DNA of 64,000 nucleotides. Source: a virus. This document shows positions 29,320-34,078 of the stretch, piece by piece. Where the stretch lies: positions 7,818 through 71,817 of the IMG/VR virus record IMGVR_UViG_3300012930_000002. One strand, written 5' to 3'. Numbering within the stretch: the stretch's first letter is position 1; each line of letters opens with the position of its first letter. The notes under the pieces were generated by a model. That model ran no database searches, had not been told where the DNA came from, and was given only the letters and a program-made list of their open reading frames with translations. Both the position numbers and the translations under genes were made by a program.

Positions 29320-30084
29320 ATGGAAGAAAGAACACTTTTAACCTTTGGCTCATTGTTCGCAGGTATCGGCGGCTTTGATTTAGGTCTTGAACGTGCTGGA
29401 ATGAAATGCAAATGGCAAGTTGAGATTGATGATTATGCATCGAAAGTCCTCGCGAAACACTGGCCCAATGTTACCCGATTTCGAGACGTGCGGGAGTGTG
29501 GAAGGCATAACCTTGCCAACGTTGATCTCATCTGCGGAGGGTTTCCGTGTCAAGACATCAGCAATGCAGGAAAACGAGCGGGAATTGACGGAGAGCGCAG
29601 CGGATTATGGTCGGAGTACGCAAGAATCATTCGCGAGTTACGACCCCAATACGTGCTCGTGGAAAACGTCGCAGCTTTGCTTGGGCGGGGAATGGGCAGA
29701 GTTCTCGGAGACTTGGCCGCGTGCGGGTATGATGCAGAGTGGGACATGTTACCCGCTTGTGCCTTTGGTGCCAAACATATCCGTGAAAGACTTTGGATAT
29801 TATCCTACCCCTACGAAAAGCGACCACAAAGGCGCATCTTCGGGATGTGGAAAGATCAAGAACGAAGAACTTTCGATGCTTCGTTATTATCTATTCAGCT
29901 TGGAGCCAATCATTGGGACGCTTTACCCTCATCCAGAGTTTGTCGAGTGGCTAATGGGATTCCCAATAGGGCACACAGAACTATGACGGTTGGGAATAGT
30001 ATCGTCCCCCAAATCGCAGAATGGATCGGACGAAGAATCATAGCCGCAGAGGAGCATGGAGCATGGAAAGCACGGAACTTTTAG
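29320..30084 (+). CDS. C5 cytosine DNA methyltransferase, alpha subunit (motifs I-VIII and X)
   Basis: FAGIGG (I), GGFPCQ (IV), ENV (VI), HIRER (VIII), GNSIVPQIAEWIG (X); no motif IX in this frame. Confidence 0.88.
   Translation: MEERTLLTFGSLFAGIGGFDLGLERAGMKCKWQVEIDDYASKVLAKHWPNVTRFRDVRECGRHNLANVDLICGGFPCQDISNAGKRAGIDGERSGLWSEYARIIRELRPQYVLVENVAALLGRGMGRVLGDLAACGYDAEWDMLPACAFGAKHIRERLWILSYPYEKRPQRRIFGMWKDQERRTFDASLLSIQLGANHWDALPSSRVCRVANGIPNRAHRTMTVGNSIVPQIAEWIGRRIIAAEEHGAWKARNF
29564..29986 (+). CDS. Nested out-of-frame methyltransferase beta subunit carrying motif IX (start uncertain)
   Basis: Open +1 frame inside the MTase gene ending in PEFVEWLMGFPIGHT (motif IX-like). Confidence 0.65.
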   Translation: MQENERELTESAADYGRSTQESFASYDPNTCSWKTSQLCLGGEWAEFSETWPRAGMMQSGTCYPLVPLVPNISVKDFGYYPTPTKSDHKGASSGCGKIKNEELSMLRYYLFSLEPIIGTLYPHPEFVEWLMGFPIGHTEL

Positions 30085-32339
30085 GTGAGCGGGATTATAC
30101 TGATTTTCTAGCGAGCAAGCGACTGGTTGCGCCCGCTACTGGCATTGAGATCGACCGCGCCGATTTGCACCCTGCCATGTTTCCCTTTCAGGCGGACGTA
30201 ACAACTTGGGCGCTACGTAAGGGCCGTGCGGCAATGTTTCTAGATTGCGTCGCGGGATCATCGCGAATACTGACATCGCAAGGCTACCAACCTATTCAAG
30301 AGCGGAATCGGCAATGGACAGAAATTTATTCGCTGTCACCAACAGGTCCGGTTGTTACTCCTGCTTTTATCTTTAAGAAGGGCAATGCGGGCCTATTACG
30401 TATTCGCACTCAAGGCGGCAGAACTATTGAGATCGCTTCACGGCATCTATTCTTAACGTCTTCCGGCTGGCTTTTGGCTTCCGAGATCGAGGTCGGCGTA
30501 TCGCTTGCAGTATCCGACGCCGACCGTCTTCTGTCCATTTTGGAATCCGGCCAGTTAGTTCAGCACGAAGATGATCGCCATTGGTCGGATACAATTCAAG
30601 ATTGTCAGGCTCGTTACACTGTTTCCCCTTCGCAGTGTTCTTATGGTGAACCACCTCTTCGGGGCGCAAGTATCGCCCAATTACCATTTCTATCACAAGT
30701 CGGTGTTCAAGAACTCGCCCCGCTTTTGAGGCAAATGGATGTTCGGGACAATAAATTGAAACGTACCCATCCGCGTCTAAGTATCGGCCGCCTTTCCATG
30801 CGGGATTATGTGACCCCGGCAAGCTATGCTGAGAGTGACGCGGGATATTGTTCCTTTTCATCGTTTGCCAAATGGTATTCTTTGAATAGCCAAGAACTAT
30901 TCCGACCTGCTTCATCCGATAGCCCTGAGCAGTCAATTCCCGAATTTTCTCAATCTCATCAAGTTGAAGATTATATAAGCGAGGTCGTCCAGTTTTCATG
31001 CTTAGAAGTATACCATGATCCTATAGTCAGTGTCGAGAAAGTAGATGCGGCGGACTATTATGATATGTACGTACCCGGCTATCACAATTACCTTGCAGAA
31101 GGTATGTGGCATCATAATACAGGTCTTGGCAAATCGTTCTGTCAAATTGAATGGGCGCGCATCCTCAATAACCAGGGTTACTGCGTGTTGATAGTAGCCC
31201 CTCTCGCTGTCGCTAAACAAACTGTGCGCGAGGCTGCGAAGTGGGGTACGGCAATCGAGTATGTGCGAGAGCCGGCAGCAATCAGCGGCACAACTGAAAC
31301 GATCATCACCAACTATGAACACGTGCAGAAGTTCGATATGCGGCAGTTTGGCGGCGTGGTACTGGACGAATCAAGCATCCTCAAGTCGCAAGACGGTAAG
31401 ACACGTACACGGTTGATTGAAATGTGCCGCGAGATACCTTTCCGCCTATGCTGCACGGCCACCCCTGCACCAAACGACATTAGCGAGATTGCCAACCATG
31501 CTGAGTTCTTAGGATTGATGTCCCGCACTGAAATGCTCGCCCATTTCTTCGTTCACGGTGACACCGGCTGGCGACTGAAAGGTCACGCTAGCGAACCGTT
31601 CTATCGCTGGCTGGCGTCCTGGGGGATGTCAGTGAAGAAGCCGAGCGACCTGGGCTACGAGGACGGTGCATTCATCTTGCCACCGCTTACCATCACTCCG
31701 CACTTTGTTCAAACCGACTGGAAGCCGGACGGGATGCTATTCAGCGTCAAGTTACGTGGCATCGGCGAACGGTCACAAGCACGGAAGGCGACACTGCTAC
31801 CACGTGTTGCGAAAACAGTTGAGATTGTTGAAGCGGAGCCGAACCAACGTTGGCTGATCTTTTGTGACACGAACGATGAATCGACGGCATTGAAAAAAGC
31901 ACTGGATGCAGTCGAGGTCAAGGGCAGCGATACGCTAGATCACAAAGAACGGTCACTGCTTGGATTTGCCAACGGTGACATTCCGCGACTTGTAAGCAAG
32001 ACCTCAATTGCGGGCTTTGGTTTGAATCTCCAAGTCTGCTCCCGCGTCCTTTACTGCGGCCTCAGCGACAGTGAGGAAAAGTTCTATCAAGGCACCCGGC
32101 GAGTCTGGCGATTTGGCCAGCCTGATCCCGTTACCGCGCATATCGTGCTGAGCGATGCCGAGTATCCGATCTACGAGAACGTGATGAGGAAAGAAGCGAA
32201 GGCAGCAGAGATGTCAGCTAACCTGATTCAGAATGTCGCTGCATATGAACGCACCGAGATCAGTTCGCATCTTGGCAGCTTTAACTATGCGGACGATCAG
32301 GAAATAAAGCTTCCATCTTGGCTTAATGGTGGTGTATAA
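30063..32339 (+). CDS. SNF2-like helicase interrupted by an intein
   Basis: MFPFQ, FLD|TGLGKS after splicing, VVLDESS, CTATPAPND, GFGLNLQ, RRVWRFGQ. Confidence 0.88.
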   Translation: MESTELLGERDYTDFLASKRLVAPATGIEIDRADLHPAMFPFQADVTTWALRKGRAAMFLDCVAGSSRILTSQGYQPIQERNRQWTEIYSLSPTGPVVTPAFIFKKGNAGLLRIRTQGGRTIEIASRHLFLTSSGWLLASEIEVGVSLAVSDADRLLSILESGQLVQHEDDRHWSDTIQDCQARYTVSPSQCSYGEPPLRGASIAQLPFLSQVGVQELAPLLRQMDVRDNKLKRTHPRLSIGRLSMRDYVTPASYAESDAGYCSFSSFAKWYSLNSQELFRPASSDSPEQSIPEFSQSHQVEDYISEVVQFSCLEVYHDPIVSVEKVDAADYYDMYVPGYHNYLAEGMWHHNTGLGKSFCQIEWARILNNQGYCVLIVAPLAVAKQTVREAAKWGTAIEYVREPAAISGTTETIITNYEHVQKFDMRQFGGVVLDESSILKSQDGKTRTRLIEMCREIPFRLCCTATPAPNDISEIANHAEFLGLMSRTEMLAHFFVHGDTGWRLKGHASEPFYRWLASWGMSVKKPSDLGYEDGAFILPPLTITPHFVQTDWKPDGMLFSVKLRGIGERSQARKATLLPRVAKTVEIVEAEPNQRWLIFCDTNDESTALKKALDAVEVKGSDTLDHKERSLLGFANGDIPRLVSKTSIAGFGLNLQVCSRVLYCGLSDSEEKFYQGTRRVWRFGQPDPVTAHIVLSDAEYPIYENVMRKEAKAAEMSANLIQNVAAYERTEISSHLGSFNYADDQEIKLPSWLNGGV
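30424..30999 (-). CDS. HNH homing endonuclease with N-terminal HTH, antisense within the intein
   Basis: HNPAWKGGRYLDADGYV...EHRLVIEMVIGRYLRPEEVVHHKN...NEPDNLEL. Confidence 0.85.
   Translation of the reverse strand: MKTGRPRLYNLQLDEIEKIRELTAQGYRMKQVGIVLGYSKNTIWQTMKRNNIPRHSQHSLPGSHNPAWKGGRYLDADGYVSIYCPEHPFASKAGRVLEHRLVIEMVIGRYLRPEEVVHHKNTAKGKQCNEPDNLELYPTNGDHLRAELTGRIPKWTEDGRRRILQAIRRPRSRKPKASRKTLRIDAVKRSQ
31007..31036 (-). promoter_or_regulatory. Antisense promoter inside the intein, driving the HNH gene
   Basis: TCGACA, 18-nt spacer ending TGG, TATACT; ATG 7 nt downstream. Confidence 0.6.
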
Positions 32340-33132
32340 TGGTGGCGTGAAGATTCCGTTGCCGGTACGTCAAAAAGTCAAGTGTGCGATCTGTGACAGA
32401 ACTCTTAGTCGGGTTATTTGGAACTACCCAAAGAATCGGCCTATCGCCTTTTTCTTTTGTAACAACAGCTGCAAGGGGCAATGGCAAAGAGAACAGCGGG
32501 AGGCATTAGGATTTACGCGAGAATGGCTGATAGAGCAGTATATTGTTCTTAAAAAGACGGCTAATGATATTGCTACTGAGATCGGTCGTGATCCTAAGCG
32601 CGTTTGGGAATGGATCAGGGATTATAAAATTGCGACTCGCCCACGTGGAACCGCAACTCATCTGAAAGGCGGCGTGCCGTTTGGACGTGGCAACATTGGC
32701 CGGAAGCATTCACCTGAAATGAAAGCAAAGCTACGAGCTATCGCATTAGCTGACGGTCGCGTTCCTTATGATCCAAAAGTCGGACCTCCGTTCAAAGGAA
32801 AACGTGGAGCCGAAACACCAAACTGGAAAGGCGGTGTTACGCCAGAGCGACAGGCTTTTTATTCATCGCCTGAATGGGCAAAAGCGATCAAGGCAGTCTG
32901 GCATCGAGCGGATGCAAAATGCGAGCGATGCGGATTAGATCATCGGACGATTGATCGAACAAAGAAACGGTTTCATGTTCATCATATCGTTAGCTTTCAA
33001 ATACGCGAGCTGCGGGCGGTAGTAAGCAATCTCGCATTACTCTGTGATACCTGTCATCGATGGGTACATAGCAAAAGGAATAAGAACCATGAGTTCATCC
33101 GCGAAAGTAATGGCGCAGGCACAGGGCTCTAA
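32326..33132 (+). CDS. Free-standing HNH endonuclease (NUMOD3-like and HTH elements)
   Basis: GRKHSPEMKAKL, PNWKGGVT, CERCG...HVHHIVSF...NLALLCDTCHRWVH. Confidence 0.85.
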   Translation: MVVYNGGVKIPLPVRQKVKCAICDRTLSRVIWNYPKNRPIAFFFCNNSCKGQWQREQREALGFTREWLIEQYIVLKKTANDIATEIGRDPKRVWEWIRDYKIATRPRGTATHLKGGVPFGRGNIGRKHSPEMKAKLRAIALADGRVPYDPKVGPPFKGKRGAETPNWKGGVTPERQAFYSSPEWAKAIKAVWHRADAKCERCGLDHRTIDRTKKRFHVHHIVSFQIRELRAVVSNLALLCDTCHRWVHSKRNKNHEFIRESNGAGTGL

Positions 33133-34078
33133 TTGGGCTTTATATAATGGGGATTCTGCCGAGATTATGAAAGGGCTTCCTTCCGAGTCTGTTGACTTAA
33201 GCCTGTTCTCTCCGCCTTTTGGCGCATTATTTGTGTATTCCAATACCGAACGTGATCTAGGTAACAGCAAAAACGCGGATGAGTTCTTTACCCACTTCGC
33301 CTACATTACCAGTGAAATTTATCGCGTGATGAAACCGGGACGGAATGTCTGTGTACACGTCGCGCAGTTGCCATTGACTAAACAGACAGATGGCGTCATC
33401 GGCATCAAGGACTTTCGCGGTGATGTAATCCGGCACTTTGTCGCGCAGAATTTTATCTTTCACGGCGAAGTTTGTATAGACAAAGATCCGCAAGCCCAGG
33501 CAATTCGCACGCACAATAAGGGGTTGTTATTCGTGCAGCTCAAGAAGGACTCAAGCTGGTTGCGACCCGCGTTCGCTGACTACGTGCTAGTGTTTCGCAA
33601 GCCTGGAGAGAACGCCGTAGCGATCCATCCTAATATCAGTAACGACGACTGGATCAAGTGGGCACATCCGCTTTGGCAAATTGAAACGACTGACGAGGAC
33701 CGAGCGCTATTCGATAGCTCCGAGCTGTTCGACCTTGCGCCGGGCACTCCGCTAATCTGGTACGGCATTCGCGAGAGTGACACGCTGCAAGGCATGCGTG
33801 AGGCTCGTGATGAGAAGGACGGCAAGCATATTTGTCCGTTGCAGCTTGGTACGATAGAGCGATGTGTTAGGTTGTGGAGTAATCCAGGCGAGCTAGTGTT
33901 CTCGCCCTTTGCAGGCATCGGCAGCGAGCCGTATCAAGCGGTCAAGTTTGGCCGGCGCGGATTAGGTATTGAACTGAAGCCACAGTATTACTCTGTCGCC
34001 GTCAAAAACCTCCAGCAAGCCGAGCGTGAGGCGATGTCAGGATCGCTGTTTGGGCTGATGGAAGCTGCCGCGCCGTAG
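33089..34078 (+). CDS. N4/N6 DNA methyltransferase (beta class)
   Basis: GDSAEIM, FSPPF catalytic motif, HICPLQ, FSPFAGIGSE SAM-binding motif, GIELK. Confidence 0.9.
   Translation: MSSSAKVMAQAQGSNWALYNGDSAEIMKGLPSESVDLSLFSPPFGALFVYSNTERDLGNSKNADEFFTHFAYITSEIYRVMKPGRNVCVHVAQLPLTKQTDGVIGIKDFRGDVIRHFVAQNFIFHGEVCIDKDPQAQAIRTHNKGLLFVQLKKDSSWLRPAFADYVLVFRKPGENAVAIHPNISNDDWIKWAHPLWQIETTDEDRALFDSSELFDLAPGTPLIWYGIRESDTLQGMREARDEKDGKHICPLQLGTIERCVRLWSNPGELVFSPFAGIGSEPYQAVKFGRRGLGIELKPQYYSVAVKNLQQAEREAMSGSLFGLMEAAAP

What the first reader, a model, noticed from the sequence alone, without database searches (positions are those of the whole stretch)
30246..31118. Intein whose homing endonuclease is encoded on the antisense strand with its own promoter
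Seen: the SNF2 helicase Walker A (FLD|TGLGKS) is split by a 291-aa intein (C1...HN, +1 Thr). Its central region of about 190 aa has no LAGLIDADG or HNH motif in the sense frame. The opposite strand holds a complete 191-aa HTH+HNH ORF (30424-30999). That ORF has a promoter (TCGACA-18-TATACT with TG extension, 31036-31007) 7 nt above its ATG, all inside the intein. Both strands stay open for 576 nt. Known: canonical inteins carry the endonuclease in frame between the splicing blocks. Inference: this is a composite selfish element in which a free-standing HNH invaded a mini-intein in reverse. The sense strand is tolerated filler that is spliced out, and endonuclease expression is uncoupled from helicase expression.
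Basis: partly seen in the sequence, partly recalled or inferred. Interest (0 to 1): 0.85.

Follow-up and report, generated by a model that had tools for sequence, protein, structure and literature searches.

The report
Helicase intein with antisense HNH gene
A phage helicase gene is interrupted in its ATP-binding loop by a self-splicing intein whose DNA-cutting "homing" enzyme is an intact gene on the opposite strand; the layout is real and kept by selection, but it is an HNH-type version of an arrangement already described for other nucleases.

Summary
The 772-aa SNF2-type helicase ORF (30021-32339, +) carries a 291-aa intein (30246-31118) between FLD and TGLGKS. A 191-aa HTH+HNH_3 ORF lies antisense at 30424-30999.

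Neither frame is open by chance. Synonymous reshuffling of the HNH codons gives a mean of 6.6 sense stops and never zero in 5000 trials.

The layout is a family trait. Of the 80 best HNH relatives in IMG/VR, 77 lie antisense inside a P-loop intein in the same codon phase, mostly in terminases. In three clusters of relatives the HNH frame has dN/dS 0.05-0.11 and the sense frame 1.9-4.8.

AlphaFold folds the two HINT lobes (pLDDT 77-98) and leaves the middle unstructured (37-53). The promoter-like site is there, at a position shared with relatives, but no transcript data exist.

Antisense endonucleases in inteins are in print for LAGLIDADG (Gorbalenya 1998, cited second-hand) and VSR-like types (bioRxiv 10.1101/2025.01.02.630785). 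I found no paper on an antisense HNH. This scan has noted the same layout 55 times in at least 42 other genomes.

Specific to this window are the SNF2 host, a shifted insertion register, and a nuclease-less mini-intein at the same site in a relative.

The parts
30021..32339 (+). SNF2-type helicase precursor ORF of 772 aa. The database copy P0121 has 758 aa, which suggests a start at Met15 (30063).
   Evidence: Pfam SNF2-rel_dom 27.1 bits (cutoff 24.9), Helicase_C E 9.2e-10, phrog_62 DNA helicase E 4.9e-54.
30021..30245 (+). N-extein, ending ...AAMFLD.
   Evidence: Intein-less relatives read straight through this point, e.g. P0178 ALFLDTGLGKS.
30246..31118 (+). Intein of 291 aa: Cys1, His67 (block B), Asp273 (block F), terminal His-Asn, followed by Thr+1.
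   Evidence: Pfam Intein_splicing 48.1 bits. Foldseek hits to mini-inteins (Mtu RecA, TM 0.86 normalised by target; Ssp DnaB, E 6.9e-9).
30246..30545 (+). HINT N-lobe (intein residues 1-100).
   Evidence: block pLDDT 77-98. Conserved in the 67-sequence alignment.
30546..30995 (+). Sense-frame insert (intein residues 101-250), predicted unstructured and unconserved.
   Evidence: block pLDDT 37-53; no conserved columns here; no domain match; sense-frame dN/dS 1.9-4.8 in relatives.
30996..31118 (+). HINT C-lobe (intein residues 251-291), ending YLAEGMWHHN.
   Evidence: pLDDT 87-97. D273, V276, Y282 and N291 are conserved.
30424..30999 (-). HTH + HNH_3 endonuclease ORF of 191 aa plus stop. Its codon position 1 lies opposite sense codon position 1.
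   Evidence: phrog_10730 E 1.3e-28; 163 homologs; all 27 invariant family columns kept; AlphaFold mean pLDDT 82.5.
30853..30963 (-). Three-helix HTH DNA-binding module (HNH protein residues 13-49).
   Evidence: helices 13-24, 29-36, 40-49. (Z 6-7.6 to small HTH domains). (HTH_38 and HTH_23, both below cutoff).
30547..30816 (-). HNH nuclease core (HNH protein residues 62-151).
   Evidence: HNH_3, residues 99-138. (I-HmuI 1u3e, Z 5.8, 80 residues aligned, model 62-151)..
31007..31036 (-). Sigma-70-like promoter match TCGACA-18-TATACT with TG extension. The -10 ends 7 nt before the HNH ATG, which would give a leaderless or near-leaderless mRNA.
   Evidence: 10 of 12. (same offset from the intein end in relatives). 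No transcript evidence.
31119..32339 (+). C-extein, starting TGLGKS (Walker A / SNF2 motif I).
   Evidence: 3173 relatives at E<=0.001, most of the ones read being uninterrupted at this point.

Best explanation
This is a mobile intein of a large phage-borne family that sits in the P-loop of ATPases. Its homing endonuclease is a separate gene on the opposite strand.

The helicase mRNA is translated straight through the intein. The two HINT lobes fold around a roughly 150-residue unstructured loop, splice themselves out and join FLD to TGLGKS, which restores Walker A.

On the other strand the 191-aa HTH-HNH_3 protein is made from its own transcript. That transcript probably starts at a promoter embedded in the HINT C-lobe codons and is leaderless. 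The protein would nick or cut intein-less helicase alleles in a co-infecting phage, so that repair copies the intein in.

Shown here:
- Both ORFs and their family membership.
- Selection for an open sense frame.
- In relatives, purifying selection on the HNH frame only.
- Recurrence of the layout in one fixed codon phase.
- Intein-less alleles of this helicase, and a nuclease-less mini-intein at the same site.

Inferred: splicing, antisense transcription, nuclease activity and target, and ongoing homing.
For: - Domains on both strands.
- The HINT fold is confident and the insert is not. The HNH model is confident, mean pLDDT 82.5, and its core aligns to I-HmuI.
- All 27 invariant columns of 18 family members are kept in the window's HNH.
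- Synonymous permutation gave stop-free sense frames in 0 of 5000 trials for the window, 0 of 5000 for L004 and 0.16% for L007.
- In 78 of the 80 best IMG/VR HNH loci the opposite strand is open across the match. In 77 of these the spanning ORF exceeds 400 aa, is in the same phase, and shows an N|[CST]..GK[ST] junction.
- HNH-frame dN/dS is 0.05, 0.11 and 0.11; sense-frame dN/dS is 4.8, 2.4 and 1.9 in three clusters.
- Promoter-like sites occur at 1.54 per kb upstream of the HNH versus 0.39 per kb in controls. In 6 of 72 unique elements the -10 ends 3-12 nt before the ATG, against 0.28 expected.
- Of 14 helicase relatives read, 8 are uninterrupted at this site. P0178 reads FLDTGLGKS. P0199 has a 191-aa intein at the same site that lacks the nuclease core.
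- Cultured phages carry the layout: Pectobacterium phage Taid and Pseudoalteromonas phage PHS3.
Against: - The window's own element has no close relative. The best HNH identity is 56% and the intein search found only itself. The dN/dS evidence is therefore borrowed from other clades.
- No RNA or DNA run holding the sequence was listed, so there is no expression evidence.
- The HNH_3 score is only 1 bit above the Pfam cutoff. Foldseek found no solved nuclease, and the I-HmuI match is middling at Z 5.8.
- The promoter hexamers overlie conserved HINT codons, so their conservation may reflect the protein. One cluster of 11 loci has only 6-8 of 12 matches there.
- Only 22 of 71 unique elements have any site passing the scan's criteria upstream.
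- The insertion register differs from the family norm: three residues before GK here, one residue before GK elsewhere. The nuclease's fit to this target is therefore unproven.
Confidence: 0.8

Rival explanations
1. The intein still splices, but the antisense HNH gene is a passenger that no longer drives homing. It is silent, inactive or mismatched to this target, and the element is now inherited only vertically in this phage lineage.
For: - There is no close relative, so no evidence of recent transfer for this copy.
- The insertion register is atypical for the family.
- A relative (P0199) has already lost the nuclease core at the same site, which shows that decay happens here.
- The window's placement in the HNH tree is unresolved.
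Against: - The 191-codon ORF is intact and keeps all 27 family-invariant residues.
- The model is confident.
- A promoter-like site is retained 7 nt from the ATG.
- An unselected antisense ORF would be expected to pick up stops.
Confidence: 0.12
2. The HNH protein has been taken over for a phage function other than homing. Possible functions are exclusion of competing phages, or nicking linked to replication or packaging. The intein merely provides a safe site for the gene.
For: - The family is strongly tied to phage ATPase genes, chiefly terminases.
- Phage HNH proteins with packaging roles are known (search listing of PMC3592412, abstract only).
- Two further nuclease and methylase genes cluster around this helicase.
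Against: - The gene travels with the intein across at least six kinds of ATPase rather than with a given phage function.
- The HTH + HNH_3 architecture resembles I-HmuI-type homing nickases.
- Packaging-type HNH proteins belong to another Pfam family (recalled, not tested here).
Confidence: 0.05
3. The helicase gene is dead: the intein no longer splices, and the open sense frame is residual.
For: Splicing was not tested. The block B threonine position is Ser in this copy (read).
Against: - Cys1, His67, Asp273, the terminal His-Asn and Thr+1 are all present.
- The 772-codon frame is intact, and synonymous reshuffling of the HNH ORF left it stop-free in 0 of 5000 trials.
- The exteins align at 42-65% identity to full-length helicases along their whole length.
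Confidence: 0.03

Closest known systems
Non-canonical inteins with an antisense LAGLIDADG endonuclease: cyanobacterial DnaX intein (Gorbalenya 1998) and actinophage minor-capsid inteins (bioRxiv 10.1101/2025.01.02.630785)
   Same: The endonuclease ORF lies on the antisense strand between the splicing blocks. The sense frame is kept open and unstructured. The proposed origin is invasion of a mini-intein by a free-standing endonuclease gene. These points come from passages and section 15 of the preprint. Gorbalenya 1998 is known to me only through citations, because the paper is not held.
   Different: The nuclease here is HTH + HNH_3, not LAGLIDADG. The hosts are P-loop ATPases. The family is far larger than the 63 non-canonical inteins of all types that the preprint reports among 784.
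[quoted passage not shown]
   Same: They are phage-borne, often in the terminase large subunit, with a separate overlapping ORF for the nuclease and no recognisable fold in the in-frame insert.
   Different: The nuclease families are different. The preprint lists HNH only as an in-frame type.
Cyanobacterial dnaX intein with an endonuclease in an overlapping frame (bioRxiv 10.64898/2026.09.14.751524)
   Same: Low dN/dS in the endonuclease frame and raised dN/dS in the overlapping intein frame. Mini-intein and intein-free alleles coexist. Read from the abstract and section 17.
   Different: LAGLIDADG nuclease in a bacterial chromosome. That preprint describes the nuclease frame as '+2ORF'.
In-frame HNH_3 inteins, e.g. 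the dCTP deaminase intein of cyanophage vB_AphaS-CL131 (PMC6293099)
   Same: HINT plus an HNH_3 nuclease in a phage gene. Splicing was shown in E. coli for that case (passages).
   Different: There the HNH_3 domain is translated in frame as part of the intein. Here it is a separate antisense gene.
ShiLan 'hidden HNH' insertion in mycobacteriophage DNA methylases (PMC11855218)
   Same: An HNH gene is hidden in another frame of an insertion that stays open in the host gene's frame (abstract). These phages appear among my weaker tblastn hits, 38% query cover.
   Different: The HNH is on the same strand, and no splicing domain was detected.
Fractured genes: split inteins with a free-standing endonuclease gene between the halves (Dassa 2009, PMC2677866)
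   Same: A free-standing-type nuclease gene sits at the position of the intein's endonuclease domain (abstract).
   Different: There the host gene is broken into two ORFs that trans-splice. Here the ORF is continuous.
I-HmuI, the HNH nicking homing endonuclease of phage SPO1 (PDB 1u3e)
   Same: It is the best solved match to the nuclease core (Z 5.8, rmsd 4.0, 80 residues, 21% identity). Both fall under Pfam HNH_3; for I-HmuI this assignment is recalled, not tested.
   Different: I-HmuI is intron-encoded with a different DNA-binding tail. The match is middling and not decisive.

Membership tests
Intein (class 1 HINT splicing domain) | N-terminal Cys/Ser nucleophile at position 1 | tested here: met
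   Cys1 at 30246-30248. This column is Cys in at least 90% of 67 aligned inteins.
Intein (class 1 HINT splicing domain) | Block B His, block F Asp, C-terminal His-Asn, and a Cys/Ser/Thr at +1 | tested here: met
   H67 and D273 are invariant and N291 nearly so. The intein ends HHN and is followed by Thr.
Intein (class 1 HINT splicing domain) | Profile match above the curated cutoff, and a HINT fold | tested here: met
   Pfam PF14890 at 48.1 bits against a cutoff of 35.8. Foldseek gave 40 PDB matches at E<=0.001; all of those listed at that level are intein, BIL or hedgehog HINT domains.
Intein (class 1 HINT splicing domain) | Autocatalytic protein splicing | not testable with these tools
   Needs expression of the precursor.
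HNH_3 / I-HmuI-like homing endonuclease | Profile match to HNH_3 and to phage HNH families | tested here: met
   PF13392 at 25.8 bits against a cutoff of 24.8, which is marginal. phrog_10730 at E 1.3e-28 plus 10 further PHROG families named HNH endonuclease.
HNH_3 / I-HmuI-like homing endonuclease | Conserved catalytic His/Asn/His positions | tested here: met
   H99, N129, N133, N140 and H143 are among 27 columns invariant in 18 family members including the window. Which of them are catalytic is inferred.
HNH_3 / I-HmuI-like homing endonuclease | Beta-beta-alpha-metal fold similar to a solved HNH nuclease | tested here: inconclusive
   Foldseek gave no match at E<=0.001. VIA-align gave I-HmuI 1u3e at Z 5.8 over model residues 62-151, ranked 16th among HTH hits.
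HNH_3 / I-HmuI-like homing endonuclease | Site-specific nicking or cleavage of the element-free allele | not testable with these tools
   Needs purified protein and target DNA.
Non-canonical intein with an antisense homing endonuclease | Complete nuclease ORF on the antisense strand inside the intein, with the sense frame uninterrupted | tested here: met
   The same holds in 77 of 80 related loci.
Non-canonical intein with an antisense homing endonuclease | Purifying selection on the nuclease frame and not on the overlapping sense frame | tested here: met
   Met in three clusters of relatives. It could not be computed for the window's own copy, which lacks close relatives.
Non-canonical intein with an antisense homing endonuclease | Nuclease of a type already described in this arrangement (LAGLIDADG or VSR-like) | tested here: not met
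   The nuclease is HNH_3. The preprint lists antisense LAGLIDADG and VSR-like only.
Fractured gene / split intein with an intervening endonuclease gene | Host gene split into two separately translated ORFs | tested here: not met
   A single continuous 772-codon ORF.
SNF2-type helicase (host protein) | SNF2 N-terminal ATPase domain plus Helicase_C, with motif I restored after splicing | tested here: met
   PF00176 at 27.1 bits (cutoff 24.9) and PF00271 at 39.2 bits (cutoff 23.5). The spliced junction FLD-TGLGKS equals the uninterrupted sequence of relative P0178.

The most novel reading that the evidence does not exclude
The HTH-HNH_3 / P-loop intein family may be one old, obligately dual-coding lineage.

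- The nuclease gene would live almost only antisense inside inteins. Two free-standing relatives, L008 and L083, may be escapees or the ancestral state.
- It would carry its own leaderless promoter written into the HINT C-lobe codons, so nuclease timing is set independently of the late or replication genes it inhabits.
- It would hop between unrelated P-loop ATPases by recognising the nucleotide-binding-loop DNA.

The window would then record such a hop with a two-residue shift of register into SNF2 motif I, followed in a sister lineage (P0199) by loss of the nuclease.
Probability: 0.45. Interest if true: 0.6.

Novelty: new variant of a known kind. Interest (0 to 1): 0.45.

Why it matters
- **Annotation.** Overlapping antisense genes are normally dismissed when phages are annotated. 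The cultured Pectobacterium phage Taid lists only a 754-aa 'hypothetical protein' over its copy. In Pseudoalteromonas phage PHS3 the terminase is annotated only downstream of the intein, and the nuclease is listed as a separate gene.
- **Dual coding.** The family is a clean natural example of two products made from both strands. It has a simple codon rule: a sense stop arises only where an HNH codon NTT, NTC or NCT precedes an A-starting codon.
- **Extent.** It supports and extends the suggestion in bioRxiv 10.1101/2025.01.02.630785 that non-canonical inteins are much commoner than reported.
- **Mini-inteins.** Such inteins tolerate a roughly 150-residue unstructured loop, which matters for intein engineering.
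- **Nucleases.** The family also offers a pool of small HTH-HNH nucleases that may be site-specific.
- **This window.** On its own it adds one more host gene and insertion site. It does not add a new principle.

Tried and rejected
- **Chance ORF:** rejected by homology and by the permutation test.
- **In-frame nuclease or folded sense domain:** rejected.
- **Close relatives of the element:** the word-indexed search with the intein region returned only the window's own protein among 2904 candidates. A scan of IMG/VR with the C-extein found none.
- **HNH alignment against genome contigs:** the tool reported no stretch conserved enough.
- **Sequencing runs:** none was listed and no RNA holder was listed.
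- **DNA of the mini-intein relative P0199:** the metagenome scan returned five other relatives. Their match lengths (1257-1377 nt for about 600-650 query residues) imply intein-less alleles, and P0199 itself was not among them. Its antisense strand could not be examined.
- **HNH phylogeny to find the donor extein:** the window falls in an unresolved polytomy. That tree has 72 unique rows from the 77 spanning loci plus the window. L008, L065 and L083 were left out.
- **PDB sequence search with the HNH profile:** it hit only HTH-repeat designs. Foldseek against PDB with the HNH model gave nothing at E<=0.001.
- **Gorbalenya 1998:** could not be opened by PubMed id or PMC id.
- my reference for L007 was mis-trimmed by one residue at the start and two at the end. 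This does not affect the window's model.
- **Supplementary tables:** those of the actinophage intein preprint were not seen and might list an antisense HNH case.
Full report
**What is in the window.** The window comes from a complete 71,817-bp viral record with direct terminal repeats. ORF 30021-32339 (+) encodes a 772-aa protein. Its exteins match SNF2-rel_dom, Helicase_C and phrog_62 'DNA helicase'.

Between ...AAMFLD and TGLGKS... lies a 291-aa insert (30246-31118). It starts with Cys, ends His-His-Asn and is followed by Thr. In the sense frame it matches only Pfam Intein_splicing (48.1 bits, cutoff 35.8) and no PHROG family.

On the minus strand, 30424-30999 is a 191-aa ORF. It matches HNH_3 (25.8 bits, cutoff 24.8), weak HTH models, and phrog_10730 'HNH endonuclease' at E 1.3e-28. 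It has 163 homologs at E<=0.001 among 233 candidates in the large protein collection, the best at 56% identity.

**Both products look functional.**
- An 18-sequence alignment of the HNH family has 27 invariant columns, and the window's copy keeps all of them.
- AlphaFold2 models the HNH protein with mean pLDDT 82.5: a three-helix HTH at residues 13-49 and a strand/helix core at 72-148.
- Foldseek found no solved relative at E<=0.001.
- The wider VIA-align search placed the HNH homing nickase I-HmuI (1u3e) at Z 5.8, with 80 residues over model residues 62-151. It is the only listed row that aligns to the nuclease core (model residues 62-151); the other rows align mainly to the N-terminal HTH region. 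The match is middling and I treat it as consistent, not decisive.
- The intein was modelled with 67 aligned relatives. Block-averaged pLDDT is 77-98 for residues 1-100 and 87-97 for 251-291, but 37-53 for 101-250. The folded part matches mini-inteins: Mtu RecA at TM 0.86 normalised by the target, and Ssp DnaB at E 6.9e-9.
- The HNH ORF covers intein residues 60-252. Its last roughly 40 codons lie opposite the folded N-lobe, and its start abuts the C-lobe. The overlap is not confined to filler.

**The open sense frame is selected.** HNH codon position 1 lies opposite sense codon position 1. In this phase a sense stop arises only where an HNH codon NTT, NTC or NCT is followed by a codon starting with A. 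I derived this rule by hand from the base pairing.

Permuting synonymous codons within the HNH ORF gives a mean of 6.6 sense stops, and 0 of 5000 permutations are stop-free. For two relatives, L004 and L007, the means are 7.5 and 5.0, with 0 of 5000 and 0.16% stop-free.

**It is a family trait.**
- A first scan of IMG/VR with the whole helicase found seven loci that matched only the intein. In L004 and L007, which I inspected, the gene is a terminase large subunit with a P-loop intein and an antisense HTH-HNH ORF.
Of those stretches, 449 were confirmed by tblastn and the best 80 were kept.
- In 78 of the 80, the opposite strand is open across the whole HNH match. In 77 the spanning frame exceeds 400 codons and is in the same phase as the window.
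- All 77 show an intein C-junction N|[C/S/T]..GK[S/T]. For the 74 where my pattern placed an N-terminal Cys, the inferred intein lengths are 272-358 aa. A few of those N-junctions were mis-placed by the pattern and were dropped.
- The three exceptions are L008 and L083, which are free-standing HNH genes with no intein around them, and L065, which lies at a contig end.

**Host genes.** Pfam on the first 330 residues or fewer of 78 C-exteins (window included) gave these counts:

| Pfam family | Members |
|---|---|
| Terminase_6N | 37 |
| Terminase_3 | 13 |
| DNA_pol3_delta2 | 2 |
| AAA | 2 |
| Helicase_C | 2 |
| ResIII | 1 |
| DEAD | 1 |
| TraG-D_C | 1 |
| SNF2-rel_dom | 1 (the window) |

- BLAST clustering puts 59 of the 78 in one terminase cluster and leaves the window as a singleton.
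- Individual checks found clamp-loader-like AAA+ proteins (L053, L058), a ResIII/DEAD helicase (L050), an SbcC-like ATPase (L051) and another terminase (L070).
- Cultured phages carry the layout too. In Pectobacterium phage Taid the 754-aa terminase-position gene is annotated 'hypothetical protein' and the 232-aa antisense HNH ORF is not annotated.
- In Pseudoalteromonas phage PHS3 the HNH is annotated and the terminase CDS is annotated only downstream of the intein, although a 708-codon frame spans it.

**Which frame is constrained.** I used three clusters of related elements with 12, 11 and 6 unique sequences. Gap-free codon columns only were used and identical sequences were collapsed.

| Cluster | Pairwise difference at HNH codon positions 1/2/3 | Usable pairs (dS>0.02) | HNH-frame dN/dS | Sense-frame dN/dS |
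|---|---|---|---|---|
| 1 | 0.098 / 0.073 / 0.296 | 39 of 66 | 0.05 | 4.8 |
| 2 | 0.154 / 0.134 / 0.480 | 44 of 55 | 0.11 | 2.4 |
| 3 | 0.071 / 0.047 / 0.178 | 15 of 15 | 0.11 | 1.9 |

HNH position 3 is sense position 2. The dN/dS values are medians from my own Nei-Gojobori implementation. A fourth cluster had one unique sequence and gave nothing.

So the nuclease is under purifying selection. The sense insert is constrained only to stay open. This evidence comes from relatives, because the window's copy has no close kin.

**The promoter claim.**
- The scan tool finds TCGACA-18-TATACT with TG at 31036-31007 on the minus strand, 10 of 12 matches. In the 2.8-kb region it finds 6 sites against 3.1 +/- 1.6 in shuffles, so the count alone is unremarkable.
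- Position is more telling. The whole window has 14 sites of at least 10/12 in 128,000 strand positions.
- Across 71 unique relatives, 22 have at least one qualifying site between the intein end and the start of the HNH match. The density is 1.54 per kb against 0.39 per kb on the same strand over the C-extein.
- The -35 hexamer often sits 82-91 nt from the intein C-junction, and at 82 in the window. Two elements (L026, L041) match 12 of 12.
- In 6 of 72 unique elements, window included, the -10 ends 3-12 nt before the first in-frame ATG. The control density predicts 0.28. That spacing implies a leaderless or near-leaderless mRNA.
- Against this, one cluster of 11 loci reaches only 6-8 of 12 at that position. 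The hexamers also overlie conserved HINT C-lobe codons, so their conservation may be a by-product. The hosts and their promoter types are unknown, and no RNA data could be found.

**Context in the helicase family.** The C-extein has 3173 relatives at E<=0.001 among 1.84 billion representatives. I read 14 of the best 150.
- Eight are uninterrupted at this site: P0122, P0123, P0125, P0126, P0127, P0156, P0166 and P0178. P0178 reads FLDTGLGKS, exactly the window's spliced junction.
- Five (P0149, P0207, P0254, P0180, P0246) carry a different intein after GLGK/GTGK. I recognised LAGLIDADG-like motifs in these by eye and did not test them.
- One, P0199, has an intein at the same D|TGLGKS site that is only 191 aa long. 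BLASTP aligns both HINT lobes but finds no counterpart for window residues 173-290, the stretch opposite HNH residues about 37-155. Pfam confirms Intein_splicing in P0199.

This fits loss of the nuclease core from a once-complete element. The reverse, a pre-invasion mini-intein, cannot be excluded without its DNA, which I could not obtain.

The window's register is also unusual. Its +1 Thr is three residues before GK, while in the 77 relatives the +1 residue is nearly always immediately before GK. The HNH tree did not resolve where the window's copy came from.

**Literature and novelty.**
- The scan's own index holds 55 earlier notes of this layout in at least 42 genomes. Those notes pointed me to Gorbalenya 1998.
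- I could not open that paper. Two preprints cite it for antisense LAGLIDADG endonucleases in the Synechocystis DnaX intein.
[quoted passage not shown] It lists HNH only as in-frame. It also proposes the invasion-of-a-mini-intein model and predicts that such inteins are under-reported.
- The dnaX preprint (abstract and section 17 read) reports the same frame-specific dN/dS pattern.
- PMC11855218 (abstract read) describes a same-strand hidden HNH without an intein. PMC6293099 (passages read) describes an in-frame HNH_3 intein that splices.
- Five full-text searches returned no paper describing an antisense HNH gene in an intein, as far as listings and the passages I opened show. They combined 'intein' with 'HNH' or 'endonuclease' and with 'antisense', 'anti-sense', 'opposite', 'reverse strand' or 'complementary strand'. 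Supplementary tables were not available.
- I therefore rate this a new variant of a known kind. It has already been met repeatedly by this scan.

**Mechanism and confidence.**
- Shown: two overlapping, intact, family-typical genes; selection keeping the sense frame open; purifying selection on the nuclease frame in relatives; a fixed phase across the family; sporadic presence in the helicase family, with intein-less and nuclease-less alleles.
- Inferred: the precursor splices and restores Walker A. The nuclease is made from its own leaderless transcript. It nicks or cuts intein-less alleles during co-infection, and repair copies the element.

I put 0.8 on this reading. The main rival, at 0.12, is that this particular copy no longer homes.

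Noticed in passing
window 32326-33132 (+), with 33044-34078 (+): A second HNH endonuclease ORF of 268 aa lies here. It is free-standing and of a different Pfam family (PF01844, E 1.8e-8). It overlaps the helicase stop by 14 nt and the start of an N6_N4 DNA methylase gene. In the closest helicase relative, P0122 (65% identity, 975 aa), helicase and methylase are one fused protein with no HNH between them (52% identity over the methylase part). This HNH may therefore have split a fused gene.
   Followed up: partly
proteins P0149, P0207, P0254, P0180, P0246 (relatives of window 31119-32336): The same helicase family carries a different, larger intein a few residues downstream in the P-loop, after GLGK/GTGK. 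I saw LAGLIDADG-like motifs in it by eye. P0246 appears to hold two such inteins. The helicase P-loop is an intein hot spot.
   Followed up: no
proteins P0123 and P0127: These helicase relatives have inteins of roughly 320 aa at other sites: after VLDE in P0127 and after FFVHDD in P0123. Their middle parts are Arg/Ser/Gly/Ala-rich with no nuclease motif visible by eye. They may be further non-canonical inteins with out-of-frame or antisense nucleases. No DNA was available to check.
   Followed up: no
protein P0199 (relative with an intein at the same site as window 30246-31118): This is a 191-aa mini-intein at the identical D|TGLGKS site. It lacks the stretch opposite the HNH core but keeps sense-frame similarity to the part opposite the HNH 5' end. 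It is probably a deletion derivative.
   Followed up: partly
L088 1146-3410 (-) and 2519-3217 (+); L090 1152-3278 (-) and 2420-3130 (+): In GenBank, Pectobacterium phage Taid annotates its intein-bearing terminase as 'hypothetical protein' and omits the antisense HNH. Seven related Pectobacterium/Dickeya phage records gave the same tblastn hit. Pseudoalteromonas phage PHS3 annotates the HNH, but annotates the terminase large subunit only downstream of the intein.
   Followed up: partly
L008 3001-3519 (+); L083 330-1031 (+): Two of the 80 closest HNH relatives are free-standing genes with no intein around them. L008 is the best-scoring IMG/VR hit to the window's HNH. They could be ancestral-type or escaped copies.
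   Followed up: partly
window 29320-30084 (+): A C-5 cytosine DNA methyltransferase gene (PF00145, E 3.4e-48) ends 64 nt inside the annotated helicase start. The helicase is therefore flanked by two methylase genes and two HNH genes.
   Followed up: no
protein P0122, residues about 348-560: The closest helicase relative has a low-complexity insertion of roughly 200 residues, bounded by Cys-x-Cys-type motifs, inside its C-terminal helicase domain. The window's protein lacks it. Its nature is unknown.
   Followed up: no
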